A DNA stretch of 64,000 nt from an uncultured bacterium (GTDB lineage: Bacteria; Muiribacteriota; CAYSPT01): the NCBI GenBank assembly GCA_964593455.1, contig CAZQHK010000005.1, positions 64,912-128,911 of the forward strand, written 5' to 3'. The notes beneath the pieces were generated by a model, which had not been told where the DNA came from, did no database searches, and saw only the letters and a program-made list of their open reading frames with translations. The translations under genes and the position numbers were made by a program. Each line of letters begins with the position of its first letter. Within the stretch, counting starts at the first letter, position 1. Of this stretch, positions 8,501 to 11,329 are shown in pieces.

Positions 8501-11329
8501 GGAAAAGTCTCCCTGCAGGCCCCGCAAATGGATGTTCCCGTGGGTAAGGTCTCCTGGGATGTACAGATCCCCGAAGGCTACCGCTTGATGATGCCGGGGG
8601 GGAACATGGCCCTGGTGCGTAGCCCACGCTTGGACACTCCCGGAATAGCGGACGTCTTCGTTCGCTCGCTCTCGTCCATTCTTTCTTGGGCAACACCCTA
8701 TCTCAGAGCCCTGGGATACCTCCTGGGTACTCTGTTGACCTGGCTCTGGTACGCCGTTTTGATCGGGCTTCTGGGCGGGCTGGTTTACCTGGGGATACTG
8801 GCCGTCGTCTGGTTCCTCAAAGTCATGGTCCGGATAGAGATCGGGCCGTCCCTGGAGTTCGCCACCAAGGCGCTCATCTTGCTGTTCATCATCGGAATAT
8901 TCGCCGCCATCTCGATGCCCCAGTTCGCCTCCATGAGCGATGACTCCAAGATTGCCAAGACCAAGCAGGACATCGATGTCATCGTCGGCGCTGTAACCCG
9001 CTTCAACGCCATGGAACCGAGGAAAGCTGAAACACTTAACGATCTCAAGGGTAAGTACCTGGTAAAACTGCCGGTAGATTCCTGGGGATACAATTACTAT
9101 CTTAACAAGCAGCAGGGCGTCATCGGGAGCCCCGGGGAAGACGGGATGAGGGGCACCCGGGACGACGTCTATATCTCCTACCTGCCCGACCTCGATACAC
9201 TTCAGCAGCATCCGGAGATGCTCCAGGAACTTATCGCCGACGGGTATGACCCGAATTACGCCGATTCACCGCGATTCCAGGAACCCGTGACCGTGGCCAA
9301 AAAACCATCGATGATGGATAAAATCAGGGACATCGAATTTCCGGACATCGGTCTGGCAAACTTCAACCGGGCCAGGCTCCAGGCCCGCGGGAAAGCCTGT
9401 TCGGCCAATATGCGGGTGCTGGAAGGCGCCATCGACATGTGGGAGATGGATGTCGATGACAAGGCTTTCAATGATGGCCGTGACTGCGCCCTGAACTATT
9501 CCGGGGGAAGATTCACTCAGGAAGGAAAATTTCTTACACCGACCTACGTTAAAAAGATCCCCCAGTGCAAAAACGGCGGCCAGTACCGGTTTCACAGCGC
9601 CACCCATTCAGTGTGGTGCACCAAGCACAACACCGTGGAAGAACCCATGATGGCCGGAGACCGGCCGGCACCCGGACCCGGAGGCGGCGGCGCTATCGCT
9701 TCTACCAGGCTAAAATCCGAAGAGAGCAGATTCAGCTCCATGGAACGGGGACTAAGTGAAGACGAACTTGTTGAAGGCGATTATGATATAGAGAAACTTG
9801 GGAAAACAAAGCGAATACCTGAACTGGTATTACCAGCTACCCTGGGAGCGCTTCAGCTCGATACCGAGGAAAATCAGAATATTTCCCATGCAGAGCATGT
9901 CCTGGGCGAAGTTGGGCACGGCGCGCCGGAAAAAACCATGGCCGATCCCGAAACGATCAAGAGCAATCTCAAGCGGCTTAACCAGGCGAGAGACTCGCTT
10001 AAGAAGAGCTGGCACGAACTCAGGATAGCCGCCGGGCGTTATCGCATCCCGAAAAATGACCCGGAAGAGTTCGGGCGTTTAGAAGAGAAACATGCCGCTA
10101 CCGAGCAAAAGCTCAACGCGGCCATCGTGAAGCAGGAAAAGGCCCTGGAGTCCCTGCAGCAGCAGGTGGCCGAACGACAGATGGAGAAGGCGGCCCGGCT
10201 GATGCAGGAACAGAAATACGACGAGGCCGTATCGATCTACCGCGACCTGCTTGGTTCGCCGCTTCGCAAGACAGCTGAGATAGCCCTTAAAAATTCCCGG
10301 GAGATGAAAGAGGAGCGGGCGAAACGGGACAAAAAACGCAAGAATAAAGGCGCCCAGGAGCAAGAAGAGGTCAAACGGAAAGTGGACGAGATCAGGCGTC
10401 TCTACATCGACCGGGCCCTGGCCCAGGCGGCGGTTGCCCGGGCGGCAGGAAAAAAAGACGGTTACCGGAGAAAAGAGACGAGCAGGCTGGTGGCTGAAAA
10501 GCTCGATAAAGCCGAGAGCCTCCTCCTGGAACTCAAGGACACACCCGACCGCCGGCAAGCCCTGAATGAGATCGCCGACACCCAGAGGCAGCTGACTTCA
10601 GCCGGGGAACCATCTTCGCCGATTGAAATTCACGATGACACTGAACCTAAAGAAGAATTAAAGAGCAGTATTCCCCAAAAGAGCCTTGAGCTGAAGCGAG
10701 AAGACAGAGAATCCATGGCCACCATCGTCCTGAATCCCGGCGACCTGGAGATGCTCAACATCAGCAGTAAAGACCTGGCCTCCGGGCAGGCGGAAACAAA
10801 ACTTAGAGAAAAGCTATCCGGTTCAGGGGAGCGCACCCCCCGGGTCATGAAATACGGTGACTCGCTGGTGGTCATCGGCGACGAGCAAACCGGGCGGATC
10901 ATCGAGCGTCTGAAGAGGACCACCAGTGTCCCGGCGCCGGCGGAACACGCCGAACTGCTTTTACCCCAGTCTTCCGCCCCGGCGGCGCCGATAGAGCCGG
11001 CCTTCCCGGTACAGAAGATCCAGCAGAACCTGTTGGCCTCTATTCACCGGGGACTCTCCCGGGGCGCTCTTCCCCTGGAGATATCGCTGCCCACCAGCAC
11101 CATCTCGTACGGGTTTTCGCGCGGACGGGCGGGACACACCGTCCCGAAGATCAAGTTCCGCTGTTTCCAGAGAAACAGCGTCTACGCCTGGAGTGTGGGA
11201 GCCGTGGGACTGCTGGTCCTATTGGTCGGTTTAGTCACCATGAGAAAGCCGCGTCCGGTACGCGAGGAAGTTTTTTTACTCGAAAAAAATACTTCATATG
11301 AAGAAAACAATGATTTGTTAAACGATTAA
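5582..11329 (+). CDS. giant (1915 aa) envelope protein: signal peptide, tandem beta-rich modules, TM cluster, internal GspG-like pseudopilin module, second pilin-like head, long charged coiled coil, C-terminal TM anchor
   Basis: A single long ORF. The N-terminal hydrophobic segment is [11 protein letters not shown]. The repeat modules are shared with the next gene. Pilin-like helix plus head: [47 protein letters not shown]...DSWGYNYY...[16 protein letters not shown]. The K/E/R-rich region spans roughly aa 1400-1700. The last TM is [16 protein letters not shown]. Confidence 0.85.
   Translation: [1915 protein letters not shown]

What the first reader, a model, noticed from the sequence alone, without database searches (positions are those of the whole stretch)
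8855..9640. GspG-type pseudopilin module without a cleavable prepilin signal, buried ~1090 aa inside a giant protein, followed by a second helix-less pilin head
The segment from aa ~1092 is [51 protein letters not shown]...[10 protein letters not shown]...[16 protein letters not shown]. It lines up position by position with the N-terminal helix and head of T2SS major pseudopilins (canonical G|FTLIELLVVIAIIGILAAIAIPNF ... DPWGNPY ... G-DG--G--DDI). However, Gly(-1) is Glu, the invariant Glu(+5) is Lys/Ala, and a 1090-aa exported region plus two TM helices precede it. Prepilin-peptidase processing and normal filament incorporation are therefore not expected. About 60 aa later comes [31 protein letters not shown]...[12 protein letters not shown]...WCTKH. 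This resembles the post-helix part of small pilin-like proteins of the A-C-x-S-N-[LM] type, but it has no TM helix of its own. No prepilin peptidase, GspE/PilB ATPase or GspF/PilC platform gene is present in the window. A pilin fold used as an internal membrane anchor or adaptor in a giant protein is unusual.
Basis: partly seen in the sequence, partly recalled or inferred. Interest (0 to 1): 0.75.

Follow-up and report, generated by a model that had tools for sequence, protein, structure and literature searches.

The report
Uncleaved pseudopilin modules inside giant membrane protein
A 1915-residue bacterial envelope protein carries, in its middle, two domains copied from the subunits of type II secretion fibres. 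They have lost the signals needed to be cut and built into a fibre, so they most likely act as a fixed membrane anchor and docking piece, an unusual reuse of a well-known building block.

Summary
ORF 5582..11329 (+, 1915 aa) contains a GspG-type pseudopilin module from aa 1092 (nt 8855): TIGR01710 E=2e-13, Pfam T2SSG above its gathering score, and only GspG chains hit in the PDB. Its head is 75-78% identical to free-standing prepilins with canonical leaders.

A second head (aa 1256-1352) lacks its membrane helix. It is also GspG-type (family profile vs PDB GspG, E=6e-6) and has canonical prepilin relatives.

The fusion is not an artefact. Two full-length orthologues (48% identity), a 97%-identical TARA fragment and conserved gene order all read through it. 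Head 1 is among the best-conserved segments (69-77%).

The class III signal is lost: no N_methyl or TIGR02532 match, Glu at -1, Lys/Ala where Glu5 should be, and one residue deleted from the helix. One upstream membrane helix plus a Lys-rich loop keep the native pilin orientation, and a C-terminal membrane helix tethers the other side.

Other members of the same uncharacterised giant-protein family carry other pilin types at the same position. Their beta-sandwich array resembles Ost1/ribophorin I.

Best reading: domesticated, unprocessed, non-polymerising pseudopilin heads used as anchor and adaptor. The partner is unknown. This is a new variant of a known kind.

The parts
5582..11329 (+). Giant ORF, 1915 aa: signal peptide, beta-sandwich array, membrane helix, pilin module, second pilin head, spacer, conserved C-terminal element, membrane helix.
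   Evidence: Full-length orthologues P0002 and P0003 are 48% identical over 96-97% of the length.
5582..5683 (+). N-terminal Sec-type signal peptide (aa 1 to about 34; hydrophobic core '[11 protein letters not shown]').
   Evidence: Hydropathy scan and the sequence itself. The cleavage site was not predicted with a dedicated tool.
6746..8647 (+). Exported all-beta array ('module A', aa 389-1022). It is paralogous to the downstream gene and present twice in distant relatives.
   Evidence: Iterated HMM search. AlphaFold2 model with pLDDT 82, all beta. Foldseek best hits are Ost1/ribophorin I, E=5e-9 to 1e-7. 59-61% identical to the orthologues.
8708..8854 (+). Upstream hydrophobic block (membrane helix 1) plus an amphipathic, basic loop that plays the part of the prepilin leader (aa about 1043-1091).
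   Evidence: Hydropathy. The loop has 5 Lys/Arg in P0002 and P0003 and 3 in the window protein. The topology is inferred.
8855..8920 (+). Degenerate pilin alpha1-N membrane helix '[22 protein letters not shown]' (aa 1092-1113). Glu at -1, Lys+4/Ala+5 in place of Glu5, one residue shorter than canonical.
   Evidence: Alignment with canonical prepilins. TIGR01710 match starts at aa 1098. No N_methyl or TIGR02532 match.
8921..9181 (+). Head 1: GspG-type globular head (aa 1114-1200) with '[11 protein letters not shown]' and the '[12 protein letters not shown]' loop.
   Evidence: 69-77% identical to the orthologues and 75-78% to free-standing prepilins.
9182..9346 (+). Variable linker between the two heads (aa 1201-1255).
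   Evidence: 31-33% identity with indels among the orthologues.
9347..9637 (+). Head 2: helix-less GspG-type head (aa 1256-1352). It begins at the Pro22-equivalent position. Conserved across its family: Cys1273, Cys1346, His1349 and Gly1333 invariant, Cys1329 nearly so.
   Evidence: Family profile vs PDB GspG, E=5.9e-6. TIGR01710 E=0.011 on the segment alone. hhalign against the head 1 family: 83% probability, E=1e-5.
9638..11011 (+). Gly/Pro-rich and highly charged, largely helical spacer (aa 1353-1810).
   Evidence: Sequence. 26-45% identity to the orthologues. No family match.
11012..11176 (+). Conserved C-terminal element '[33 protein letters not shown]' (aa 1811-1865). In relatives a similar element directly precedes the membrane helices.
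   Evidence: 69-71% identical to the orthologues. Weak but position-consistent HMM matches in P0104, P0012, P0006, P0014 and P0010.
11177..11329 (+). C-terminal membrane helix and short basic cytoplasmic tail ('[10 protein letters not shown]...').
11361..15254 (+). Downstream paralogue D1 (1297 aa): signal peptide, the same beta array, C-terminal membrane helices. It starts 31 nt after the giant gene.
   Evidence: BLASTP of the giant aa 16-1025 against D1 aa 8-1049, E=5e-39. Gene order conserved in L001 and L002.
15259..16800 (+). Third gene of the conserved trio, D2 (513 aa; possible lipoprotein, 'ILGC'). It starts 4 nt after D1.
   Evidence: No family or PDB match.

Best explanation
The segment is a domesticated pair of GspG-type pseudopilin modules built into a giant inner-membrane envelope protein.

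Shown:
- Both heads belong to the GspG family.
- The class III signal has decayed.
- The fusion is real, and the head is under strong purifying selection.

Inferred:
1. After Sec export, the roughly 1000-residue beta-sandwich array lies in the periplasm.
2. One membrane helix brings the chain back into the cytoplasm, and a short Lys-rich loop stands in for a prepilin leader.
3. The degenerate alpha1-N helix then crosses from inside to outside, as in any prepilin. This places head 1 at the outer face of the inner membrane.
4. Head 2, a long charged spacer, a conserved beta element and a final membrane helix follow.

Gly-1 is missing in two of three orthologues and Glu5 in all three. The module is also tethered to the membrane on both sides. 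It is therefore neither cut by a prepilin peptidase nor pulled into a filament.

It most likely works as a permanent membrane anchor that presents pseudopilin heads as a docking surface. This links the giant scaffold and its paralogous partner D1 to whatever normally recognises such heads. The partner is not identified. Candidates are the free-standing paralogous pilins and YfbK-type vWA proteins.
For: Identity of the modules:
- TIGR01710 E=2.3e-13; Pfam T2SSG above its gathering score.
- The head 1 family profile hits only GspG structures.
- The head 2 family profile hits GspG structures at E=5.9e-6.
- The two heads relate to each other: hhalign 83% probability, E=1e-5.

Origin from true pilins:
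- P0020, P0167 and P0169 start '[34 protein letters not shown]', match N_methyl and TIGR02532, and are 75-78% identical to head 1.
- P0024 is a canonical 142-aa prepilin with the head 2 type.

Loss of the signal:
- No N_methyl or TIGR02532 match in the window protein.
- Position -1 is Glu, Gly or Ser in the three orthologues; Lys replaces Glu5 in all three; one residue is deleted from the helix.
- Gly-1 is 'absolutely critical' for cleavage, and Glu5 mutants do not homopolymerise (PMC4471445).

Real and selected:
- Full-length orthologues and conserved gene order.
- P0001 reads through the junction and the TARA fragment P0018 spans both heads.
- Head 1 is 69-77% identical among orthologues against 48% overall.

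Topology:
- Signal peptide, one upstream membrane helix, a Lys-rich loop and a C-terminal helix with a basic tail.
- Helix-less copies of the same heads follow Sec signal peptides in P0019, P0034 and P0058, so the heads work in the periplasm without filaments.

Recurrence:
- P0044 (GspG E=4e-8), P0104 (GspG E=3.5e-7) and P0004 (HX9DG-like) carry an internal pilin after the same array plus one membrane helix. P0152 embeds a PQFASMS-type pilin helix in an alpha-2-macroglobulin-like protein after a multi-helix membrane block.
- None of these has both Gly-1 and Glu5.
Against: - No structure could be obtained for the pilin region. The AlphaFold2 model had pLDDT 41, so the fold is inferred from sequence alone.
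- Topology is inferred from hydropathy, charge and parity only. In the window protein the upstream hydrophobic block is about 45 residues and could be read as two helices.
- Orthologue P0002 retains 'G|FTFK', so cleavage in that lineage is not excluded.
- Glu5-less pilins can co-assemble with wild-type subunits (PMC4471445).
- The strong conservation of head 1, equal to that of free prepilins, would also fit a module that still makes filament-type contacts.
- No binding partner is identified. The rest of the genome, including any type II secretion or type IV pilus genes, was not seen.
Confidence: 0.68

Rival explanations
1. Fibre-coupled stub. The internal module is not cleaved but still engages a short pseudopilus or pilus built from the free-standing paralogues (P0020 type), either nucleating or anchoring it. 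This would physically couple a fibre to the giant scaffold. The conserved Lys near the start of the helix would supply the positive charge normally given by the free N-terminal amine to Glu5 of a neighbouring subunit.
For: - Head 1 is as similar to free prepilins (75-78%) as to its own orthologues (69-77%).
- P0020 comes from the same sample as orthologue P0002, at similar coverage.
- Lys is conserved at the Glu5-aligned position in all three orthologues, and a Lys lies near the helix start in P0044.
- Glu5-less subunits can co-assemble with wild-type ones (PMC4471445).
Against: - The module is tethered on both sides by membrane helices, which is hard to reconcile with extraction into a fibre.
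- The Lys is equally well explained as an ordinary positive-inside flank of a membrane helix.
- No assembly ATPase, platform, secretin or peptidase gene lies near the giant gene or near P0020.
- The same heads also occur without any helix in soluble periplasmic proteins.
Confidence: 0.15
2. Cryptic prepilin. A prepilin peptidase cuts the giant protein just before the pilin helix, splitting it into an N-terminal anchored array and a C-terminal modular pilin that is then polymerised.
For: Orthologue P0002 retains Gly-Phe-Thr at -1/+1/+2, preceded by a Lys-rich loop. The topology matches that of a prepilin.
Against: - Position -1 is Glu in the window protein and Ser in P0003, and Gly-1 is absolutely critical for processing.
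- Glu5 is absent in all three orthologues.
- The 'leader' would be about 1090 residues, against 6-26 in known prepilins.
- There is no match to N_methyl or TIGR02532.
- The C-terminal membrane helix would hold the product in the membrane.
Confidence: 0.07
3. Artefact. Two or three separate genes (an exported protein, a pilin, a small pilin) were joined by a frameshift or an assembly chimera.
For: None beyond the unusual architecture.
Against: - The frame is open and continuous.
- P0002 and P0003, at 48% identity and from other assemblies, have the same continuous architecture.
- P0001 reads from the array into the pilin helix, and the TARA fragment P0018 (97% identical) spans head 1 to head 2.
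- The pilin helix has no start codon or leader context of its own, and head 2 has no helix at all.
Confidence: 0.02
4. Chance resemblance. The segment is a generic membrane helix followed by an unrelated domain.
For: The whole protein gives no Pfam hit when scanned intact.
Against: E-values of 1e-13 to 1e-7 against curated GspG models and solved structures, and 72-78% identity to bona fide prepilins.
Confidence: 0.01

Closest known systems
GspG/PulG/XcpT major pseudopilin of type II secretion systems (TIGR01710, Pfam PF08334; PDB 5wda, 1t92, 3g20, 4lw9)
   Same: Both share a hydrophobic alpha1-N helix ending in Pro, an alpha1-C helix, the 'Y-x-x-x-L-P-x-D-P/S-W-G-x-x-Y' strand and the 'G-x-D-G-x-x-G-x-x-D-D' loop. 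In GspG that loop binds calcium (my own knowledge of the GspG structures). Head 2 aligns over the same core, with 'P-x-C-x-x-G-G-x-Y' replacing 'P-x-D-P-W-G-x-x-Y'.
   Different: The module is internal rather than N-terminal. It has no leader ending in Gly, no Glu5 and a helix one residue shorter. It scores below the TIGR01710 equivalog cut-off (50 against 88.85 bits). No gsp genes lie nearby. It is tethered on both sides, occurs in tandem with a second head, and head 2 has a Cys3-His signature instead of the calcium loop.
Free-standing '[11 protein letters not shown]'-type prepilins (P0020, P0167, P0169, P0170, P0021, P0022; about 300-346 aa, uncharacterised)
   Same: Head sequence is 62-78% identical, and they occur in the same environments and samples.
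   Different: They have a canonical '[12 protein letters not shown]' class III signal (N_methyl and TIGR02532 matches) and a roughly 200-aa C-terminal extension ending 'PASRxMxLKL' that the giant protein lacks.
Modular type IV pilins (e.g. Streptococcus sanguinis PilB; Raynaud et al. 2021, PMC8179133)
   Same: A pilin module is combined with unrelated functional modules in one polypeptide.
   Different: Modular pilins are defined by an N-terminal, processed pilin module with extra modules grafted onto its C-terminus for display on a filament. The published survey looked only for N-terminal IPR012902. Here the pilin is in the middle, unprocessed, and the large module lies on its N-terminal side.
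Archaeal FlaF/FlaG (archaellin-fold proteins used as static membrane-anchored stator parts). Cited from my own knowledge, not checked here.
   Same: A filament-subunit fold is reused as a fixed, membrane-anchored, non-polymerising envelope component.
   Different: Those proteins are small, single-domain and N-terminally anchored. They belong to a filament machine encoded next to them, and they share no sequence relationship with this protein.
Ost1/ribophorin I luminal domain (PDB 6ezn_A, 6s7o_E). This comparison is for the N-terminal array, not the pilin part.
   Same: Tandem beta-sandwich domains followed by a membrane helix. Foldseek E=5e-9 to 1e-7 over about 420 aligned columns.
   Different: Sequence identity is 9-12% and TM-scores are low (0.2-0.3). 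The array here is longer and bacterial, and no oligosaccharyltransferase context is present.

Membership tests
Type IV pilin / class III signal peptide (Pfam PF07963 N_methyl; TIGR02532) | Match to the N_methyl / GFxxxE profile | tested here: not met
   No hit at E<=1 in the window fragment. The same libraries score the relatives P0020 and P0024 above cut-off.
Type IV pilin / class III signal peptide (Pfam PF07963 N_methyl; TIGR02532) | N-terminal position with a short (6-26 aa) hydrophilic leader | tested here: not met
   1091 residues precede Phe+1, including a Sec signal peptide, a roughly 1000-aa exported region and a membrane helix. Definition taken from PMC4471445.
Type IV pilin / class III signal peptide (Pfam PF07963 N_methyl; TIGR02532) | Gly at -1 (cleavage site) | tested here: not met
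   Glu in the window protein, Ser in P0003, Gly only in P0002.
Type IV pilin / class III signal peptide (Pfam PF07963 N_methyl; TIGR02532) | Glu at +5 | tested here: not met
   F-A-T-K-A in the window protein. Lys aligns with Glu5 in all three orthologues.
Type IV pilin / class III signal peptide (Pfam PF07963 N_methyl; TIGR02532) | Tract of about 21 hydrophobic residues forming alpha1-N, ending near Pro22 | tested here: met
   '[21 protein letters not shown]' is 21 residues. The Gly and Pro are conserved at positions shifted by one because of the deletion.
Type IV pilin / class III signal peptide (Pfam PF07963 N_methyl; TIGR02532) | Cleavage and N-methylation by a prepilin peptidase | not testable with these tools
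   Needs biochemistry. No A24 peptidase gene was found in the window ORFs scanned.
GspG major pseudopilin (TIGR01710 equivalog; Pfam PF08334 T2SSG) | Head matches the T2SSG domain model above its gathering score | tested here: met
   23.1 bits against a gathering score of 21 on the fragment. The head 1 family profile hits eight GspG structures only.
GspG major pseudopilin (TIGR01710 equivalog; Pfam PF08334 T2SSG) | Score above the TIGR01710 equivalog cut-off (i.e. an orthologue of GspG) | tested here: not met
   50.3 bits against 88.85. The free-standing relative P0020 also falls short, at 60.7 bits.
GspG major pseudopilin (TIGR01710 equivalog; Pfam PF08334 T2SSG) | Encoded with the type II secretion genes gspD/E/F/O and the minor pseudopilins | tested here: not met
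   None in the window ORFs scanned or in the orthologous locus L001. The rest of the genome was not available.
GspG major pseudopilin (TIGR01710 equivalog; Pfam PF08334 T2SSG) | Pilin fold of the head (alpha1-C packed on an antiparallel sheet) | tested here: inconclusive
   The AlphaFold2 model had pLDDT 41. Its secondary-structure order (long helix, then three strands, for each head) is compatible but not usable for comparison.
Modular type IV pilins (PMC8179133) | N-terminal processed pilin module with functional module(s) grafted onto its C-terminus | tested here: not met
   The pilin module is internal and the largest module lies on its N-terminal side. Definition.
Two-module giant envelope proteins (uncharacterised; P0004-P0017, P0044, P0104) | Signal peptide plus a beta array of about 640 aa detectable by a family HMM, followed by membrane helix(es) | tested here: met
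   Domain E=3e-203 for aa 389-1022 with the iterated family HMM (the query seeded this HMM, so its own score is circular). BLASTP to the relatives gave E=1e-10 to 2e-22, and the relatives carry two copies each.

The most novel reading that the evidence does not exclude
The internal, uncleavable pseudopilin is a dedicated coupling subunit. It would physically join a short type IV-filament-like fibre, made of the free-standing '[11 protein letters not shown]' pilins, to a giant Ost1-like envelope scaffold. Its conserved Lys would replace the missing N-terminal amine in the Glu5 salt bridge. Repeated capture of three different pilin types at the same position in this protein family would then mark a previously unrecognised class of filament-anchored envelope machines. 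In distant relatives these would be wired to ECF sigma / vWA anti-sigma signalling.
Probability: 0.13. Interest if true: 0.8.

Novelty: new variant of a known kind. Interest (0 to 1): 0.55.

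Why it matters
Type IV pilins and pseudopilins are defined by their N-terminal class III signal, and surveys find them by that signal. The published survey of modular pilins, for example, looked only at N-terminal pilin modules.

This case shows pilin modules that escaped that definition. They sit in the middle of a giant membrane protein, have lost Gly-1 and Glu5, and have acquired an extra upstream membrane helix that preserves pilin topology. Their head is nevertheless conserved as strongly as that of true pilins.

At least three pilin types occupy the same position in one uncharacterised family of giant envelope proteins. Helix-less copies of the same heads are also scattered through periplasmic TPR proteins. 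Together these suggest that pseudopilin heads serve as general periplasmic docking domains in this poorly sampled marine lineage.

The finding gives a concrete handle for asking what pseudopilin heads bind when they are not in a filament. It also gives a first functional clue for a large orphan protein family.

Tried and rejected
- **PDB and Pfam searches with head 2 alone.** These gave nothing. Only a family profile (A4) recovered GspG.
- **Looking for more orthologues.** Genome contigs gave one truncated locus, L006, from an 'uncultured bacterium'. The first metagenome-contig scan gave nothing. The second gave only two free-standing pilins, L008 and L009.
- **Taxonomy.** Cluster look-ups returned no organism names. 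A search with the FlgE-like protein found no relative above 47% identity. The lineage stays unassigned. I suspected the PVC superphylum because a distant relative is labelled Verrucomicrobiae, but this is unconfirmed.
- **The third gene, D2, and the spacer.** No Pfam, NCBIfam or PDB match.
- **Is the C-terminal element the normal end of the array, so that the pilin cassette is an insertion?** The HMM matches are position-consistent but individually not significant, E=0.015-3. This is kept only as a weak inference.
- **Literature.** Searches for internal, uncleaved or pseudopilin-like domains found no description of this architecture.
- **'GPSLE' at aa 1087-1091.** I considered this a relic cleavage motif and rejected it. 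It is not conserved in the orthologues and has Pro at +1.

Full report
**1. What is at the coordinates**

The finding lies inside one open reading frame, window 5582..11329 on the + strand, 1915 aa. Residue 1092 (nt 8855) begins '[42 protein letters not shown]...'. 'YISY' is at aa 1197, and the second segment, '[31 protein letters not shown]...WCTKH', runs from aa 1260 to about 1349.

**2. Is the pseudopilin similarity real?**

Yes.
- On a 307-aa fragment the NCBIfam GspG equivalog model TIGR01710 scores E=2.3e-13. That is 50.3 bits, below its 88.85-bit equivalog cut-off.
- Pfam T2SSG scores 23.1 bits against a gathering score of 21.
- phmmer against PDB sequences returns mainly GspG chains, best 5wda at E=5e-4, with weaker type IV pilin matches to the helix. 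The alignment covers '[18 protein letters not shown]' against 'GGYIRRLPQDPWGSDYQL' and '[12 protein letters not shown]' against 'GPDGVPESNDDI'.
- A 13-sequence profile of the head hits eight GspG structures and nothing else, E=7.7e-8 to 1.2e-4.

An exhaustive search of 1.84 billion representative proteins showed what the module descends from. The segment aa 1096-1208 matches residues about 11-120 of many free-standing proteins of 250-346 aa. These begin with a textbook class III signal, for example P0020: '[60 protein letters not shown]...'. They match N_methyl (PF07963), TIGR02532 and T2SSG. Over the 87-residue head they are 75-78% identical to the window protein.

**3. The second head**

Alone, it matched nothing in Pfam or the PDB. 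It does belong to a large family.
- Some members are canonical small prepilins. P0024 (142 aa) reads '[62 protein letters not shown]...CNKHGTVDQP' and matches N_methyl and TIGR02532.
- Against P0024, the window copy starts exactly at the Pro22-equivalent position ('...[19 protein letters not shown]'). The membrane half of alpha1 is gone and the alpha1-C half is kept.
- A 30-sequence profile of this family hits GspG structures: 5wda at E=5.9e-6, 3g20 at 1.3e-5, and five more near 1e-3.
- The window segment alone gives TIGR01710 E=0.011.
- hhalign relates the two head families at 83% probability, E=1e-5. '[15 protein letters not shown]' aligns with 'YLKxxPxCxxGGxY'.

So both heads are GspG-type. 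In the head 2 family alignment Cys1273, Cys1346, His1349 and Gly1333 are invariant and Cys1329 is nearly so. This points to a metal site or a disulfide, which I could not resolve.

**4. Not an artefact**

- Two full-length orthologues have the same continuous architecture: P0002 (1960 aa) and P0003 (1902 aa), 48% identical and from other assemblies.
- A database fragment from a 4.9-kb contig, P0001, is identical over aa 1-1109 and reads from the exported region into the pilin helix.
- A TARA Oceans fragment, P0018, is 97% identical and spans head 1 to head 2.
- Gene order around the orthologue is conserved: Aas-like gene, TetR gene, then divergently the giant gene, a gene of about 1300 aa and a gene of about 540 aa.
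- Identity among orthologues by region:

| Region | Identity to P0002 / P0003 |
|---|---|
| Head 1 | 69% / 77% |
| C-terminal element | 71% / 69% |
| Beta array | 61% / 59% |
| Head 2 | 55% / 57% |
| Pilin helix | 36% / 55% |
| Head 1-head 2 linker and spacer aa 1353-1500 | 26-33% |

The pilin heads are therefore under purifying selection. They are not decaying passengers.

**5. The class III signal is gone**

- Neither N_methyl nor TIGR02532 matches the window module.
- Aligned with the canonical relatives, position -1 is Glu in the window protein, Gly in P0002 and Ser in P0003.
- The residue aligned with Glu5 is Lys in all three orthologues.
- One residue of the helix is deleted, so Phe+1 to Pro spans 21 residues rather than 22.
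- According to the review PMC4471445, the leader is 6-26 residues and ends in Gly. That Gly is 'absolutely critical' for processing. Glu5 is dispensable for cleavage, but Glu5 mutants cannot homopolymerise.
- Here the 'leader' is 1091 residues long.
- No canonical prepilin start exists in any frame of the window. None of the scanned window ORFs carries a peptidase A24, GspE/PilB or GspF/PilC domain.

**6. Topology (inferred)**

Hydropathy finds four elements: an N-terminal signal peptide, a hydrophobic block at aa 1043-1088, the pilin helix, and a C-terminal helix (aa 1867-1885) followed by '[10 protein letters not shown]'.

In P0002 and P0003 the upstream block is a single clean helix. A loop with five Lys follows it: 'KILAWIIKVLLKVELKPVF(G/S)F..FK'.

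The chain starts outside, because of the signal peptide, and ends inside, because of the basic tail. It therefore needs an odd number of crossings, and three crossings fit. The resulting path is:
1. array in the periplasm;
2. membrane helix 1, outside to inside;
3. basic loop in the cytoplasm, the equivalent of a prepilin leader;
4. pilin helix, inside to outside, the native prepilin orientation;
5. heads, spacer and C-terminal element in the periplasm;
6. last helix, outside to inside.

A periplasmic location for the heads agrees with relatives in which helix-less copies of the same heads follow ordinary Sec signal peptides. Examples are P0019 and P0058 (signal peptide, TPR, head 2, head 1) and P0034 (signal peptide, head 1, head 1, head 2).

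**7. The host protein**

- Residues 16-1025 are paralogous to the product of the next gene, D1 (11361..15254), at E=5e-39.
- Distant relatives of 2100-2490 aa contain two copies of the same roughly 640-aa array, separated by a block of several membrane helices.
- An AlphaFold2 model of aa 389-1022 (17-sequence alignment, pLDDT 82) is an all-beta chain of sandwich domains.
- Its best PDB matches are the luminal domains of Ost1/ribophorin I, E=5e-9 to 1e-7. Integrin alpha legs and mu-homology domains come next. This is a scaffold-type fold without an obvious catalytic clue.
- No Pfam or NCBIfam family covers it.

**8. The arrangement recurs**

The order 'array, one membrane helix, loop, pilin helix, pilin head' appears in other members of this family, with different pilin types:
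- P0044 (982 aa) has a 'PQFAAMTEDAK' GspG-type module at aa 728-840 (TIGR01710 E=4e-8).
- P0104 (1996 aa) has a head 2-type module with its own helix at about aa 820-942 (TIGR01710 E=3.5e-7, ComGC E=6e-7).
- P0004 (2490 aa) has a module reading 'LLPSLAKAKAKANRISSVNNLKNIGLA...LLADGSV', like the H-X9-DG pilin-like proteins. The profile match is weak, at E=0.08.

P0152, an alpha-2-macroglobulin-like protein, also embeds a 'PQFASMSGDSK' pilin helix. None of these internal modules has both Gly-1 and Glu5.

Repeated, independent use of pilin modules at one position argues for function rather than accident.

**9. Mechanism**

What the evidence shows:
- The modules are GspG-family domains derived from true prepilins.
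- The signal for cleavage and assembly has decayed.
- The head is strongly conserved.
- The fusion is genuine and recurrent.

What I infer:
- The pilin helix serves as a membrane anchor in native orientation, made possible by the extra upstream helix.
- Being tethered on both sides, the module cannot be extracted into a filament.
- The heads act as a fixed periplasmic docking surface for the giant scaffold and its partners D1 and D2.

The binding partner is unknown. Two leads:
- The free-standing paralogous pilins. P0020 comes from the same sample as orthologue P0002.
- YfbK-type vWA proteins. Distant relatives of the giant protein sit in a conserved cassette of ECF sigma, a vWA-bearing protein of anti-sigma-like layout, and the giant gene. 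P0023 is a '[11 protein letters not shown]' prepilin with exactly such a vWA domain inserted in its head.

I put 0.68 on the anchor/adaptor reading, 0.15 on a version in which the stub still engages a fibre of the free pilins, and 0.07 on cryptic cleavage. Artefact or chance together get less than 0.05.

**10. Comparison with what is known, and novelty**

The domains belong to the GspG/T2SSG family by sequence. The protein is not a GspG orthologue and not a type IV pilin by the defining class III signal; four of five testable features fail.

It is also not a 'modular pilin' in the published sense, which requires an N-terminal processed pilin with modules grafted onto its C-terminus. That survey, which was restricted to N-terminal IPR012902, would have missed this architecture.

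Literature searches found no description of internal, uncleaved pilin modules in large membrane proteins. The library is incomplete, so this is absence of evidence only.

I rate it a new variant of a known kind, of moderate interest. It is surprising for pilin specialists and gives a foothold on an orphan giant-protein family. No open question is settled, and the mechanism is still inferred.

**11. Limits**

- There is no usable structure for the pilin region.
- Topology is inferred, not predicted with a dedicated tool.
- The organism is unassigned.
- The rest of its genome, and hence the presence of filament machinery, was not examined.

Noticed in passing
L007:5967-17029, L010:5616-17050, L011:4972-17170, L012:5739-12355: Distant two-array relatives of the giant protein sit in a conserved cassette. 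It runs ECF sigma factor, then a 1000-1360 aa protein of anti-sigma-like layout (cytoplasmic N-terminus, one membrane helix, periplasmic vWF_A/VWA/YfbK_C), then the giant gene. In L012 the middle gene has no Pfam hit. This suggests the family belongs to an envelope-signalling module.
   Followed up: partly
P0023 (728 aa): This is a '[11 protein letters not shown]'-type pilin-like protein (leader 'MGQKGFSIIM', no Glu5) with a YfbK-type vWA domain inserted into its head. It gives a Rosetta-stone-style link between this pilin family and the vWA proteins that neighbour the giant-protein family.
   Followed up: no
window 6746-8647 (aa 389-1022 of the giant protein) and window 11361-15254: The exported array and its paralogue D1 form a beta-sandwich chain whose best structural matches are the luminal domains of eukaryotic Ost1/ribophorin I (Foldseek E=5e-9). 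No Pfam or NCBIfam family covers this bacterial family.
   Followed up: partly
window 9347-9637 and alignment A4: The head 2 family has an invariant Cys...Cys-x2-His pattern, plus a nearly invariant Cys in 'P-x-C-x-x-G-G-x-Y'. This suggests a zinc site or a disulfide replacing the GspG calcium loop. Most family members are not prepilins. They are zinc-ribbon plus membrane-helix proteins, tandem repeats, or C-terminal modules of TPR proteins.
   Followed up: partly
window 46374-53891 (-) and 45149-46360 (-): A 2505-aa protein with eight lamin-tail (LTD) domains and a FlgD_ig-like C-terminus lies directly upstream of a ComEA-like HHH_3 protein.
   Followed up: no
window 581-4513 (-) and 4510-5088 (-): A 1310-aa fusion of MFS transporter, acyltransferase, carrier-protein and AMP-binding domains (LplT/Aas-like) is paired with a TetR regulator. 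The pair is divergently transcribed from the giant gene, and the arrangement is conserved at the orthologous loci L001 and L002.
   Followed up: partly
window 30781-31899 (-): In this MsrB-MsrA fusion ORF the MsrA (PMSR) profile is matched only over positions 1-59 of 153, and an overlapping ORF lies in another frame. This may be a frameshift or a divergent C-terminus.
   Followed up: no
window 40973-42694 (+): A FlgE-like hook gene stands without neighbouring flagellar genes. Its nearest database relatives are at most 47% identical over partial length, which shows how poorly sampled this lineage is.
   Followed up: partly
window 24908-25513 (+): A 201-aa ORF matches only the C-terminal part (positions 233-387 of 395) of the Alginate_exp porin profile. 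Either the gene is truncated or its true start lies upstream.
   Followed up: no
L008:31-1071, P0020, P0022, P0023, P0039: The free-standing '[11 protein letters not shown]' pilins carry a roughly 200-aa C-terminal extension that ends in a conserved motif: 'PASRxMxLKL', 'PASRPIQLRL' or 'PSARSMLLKF'. Its function is unknown.
   Followed up: no
window 8840-8854 (aa 1087-1091): 'GPSLE' lies immediately before Phe1092 and superficially resembles G|xSLxE. It is not conserved in the orthologues and has Pro at +1, so it is probably not a cleavage site.
   Followed up: yes
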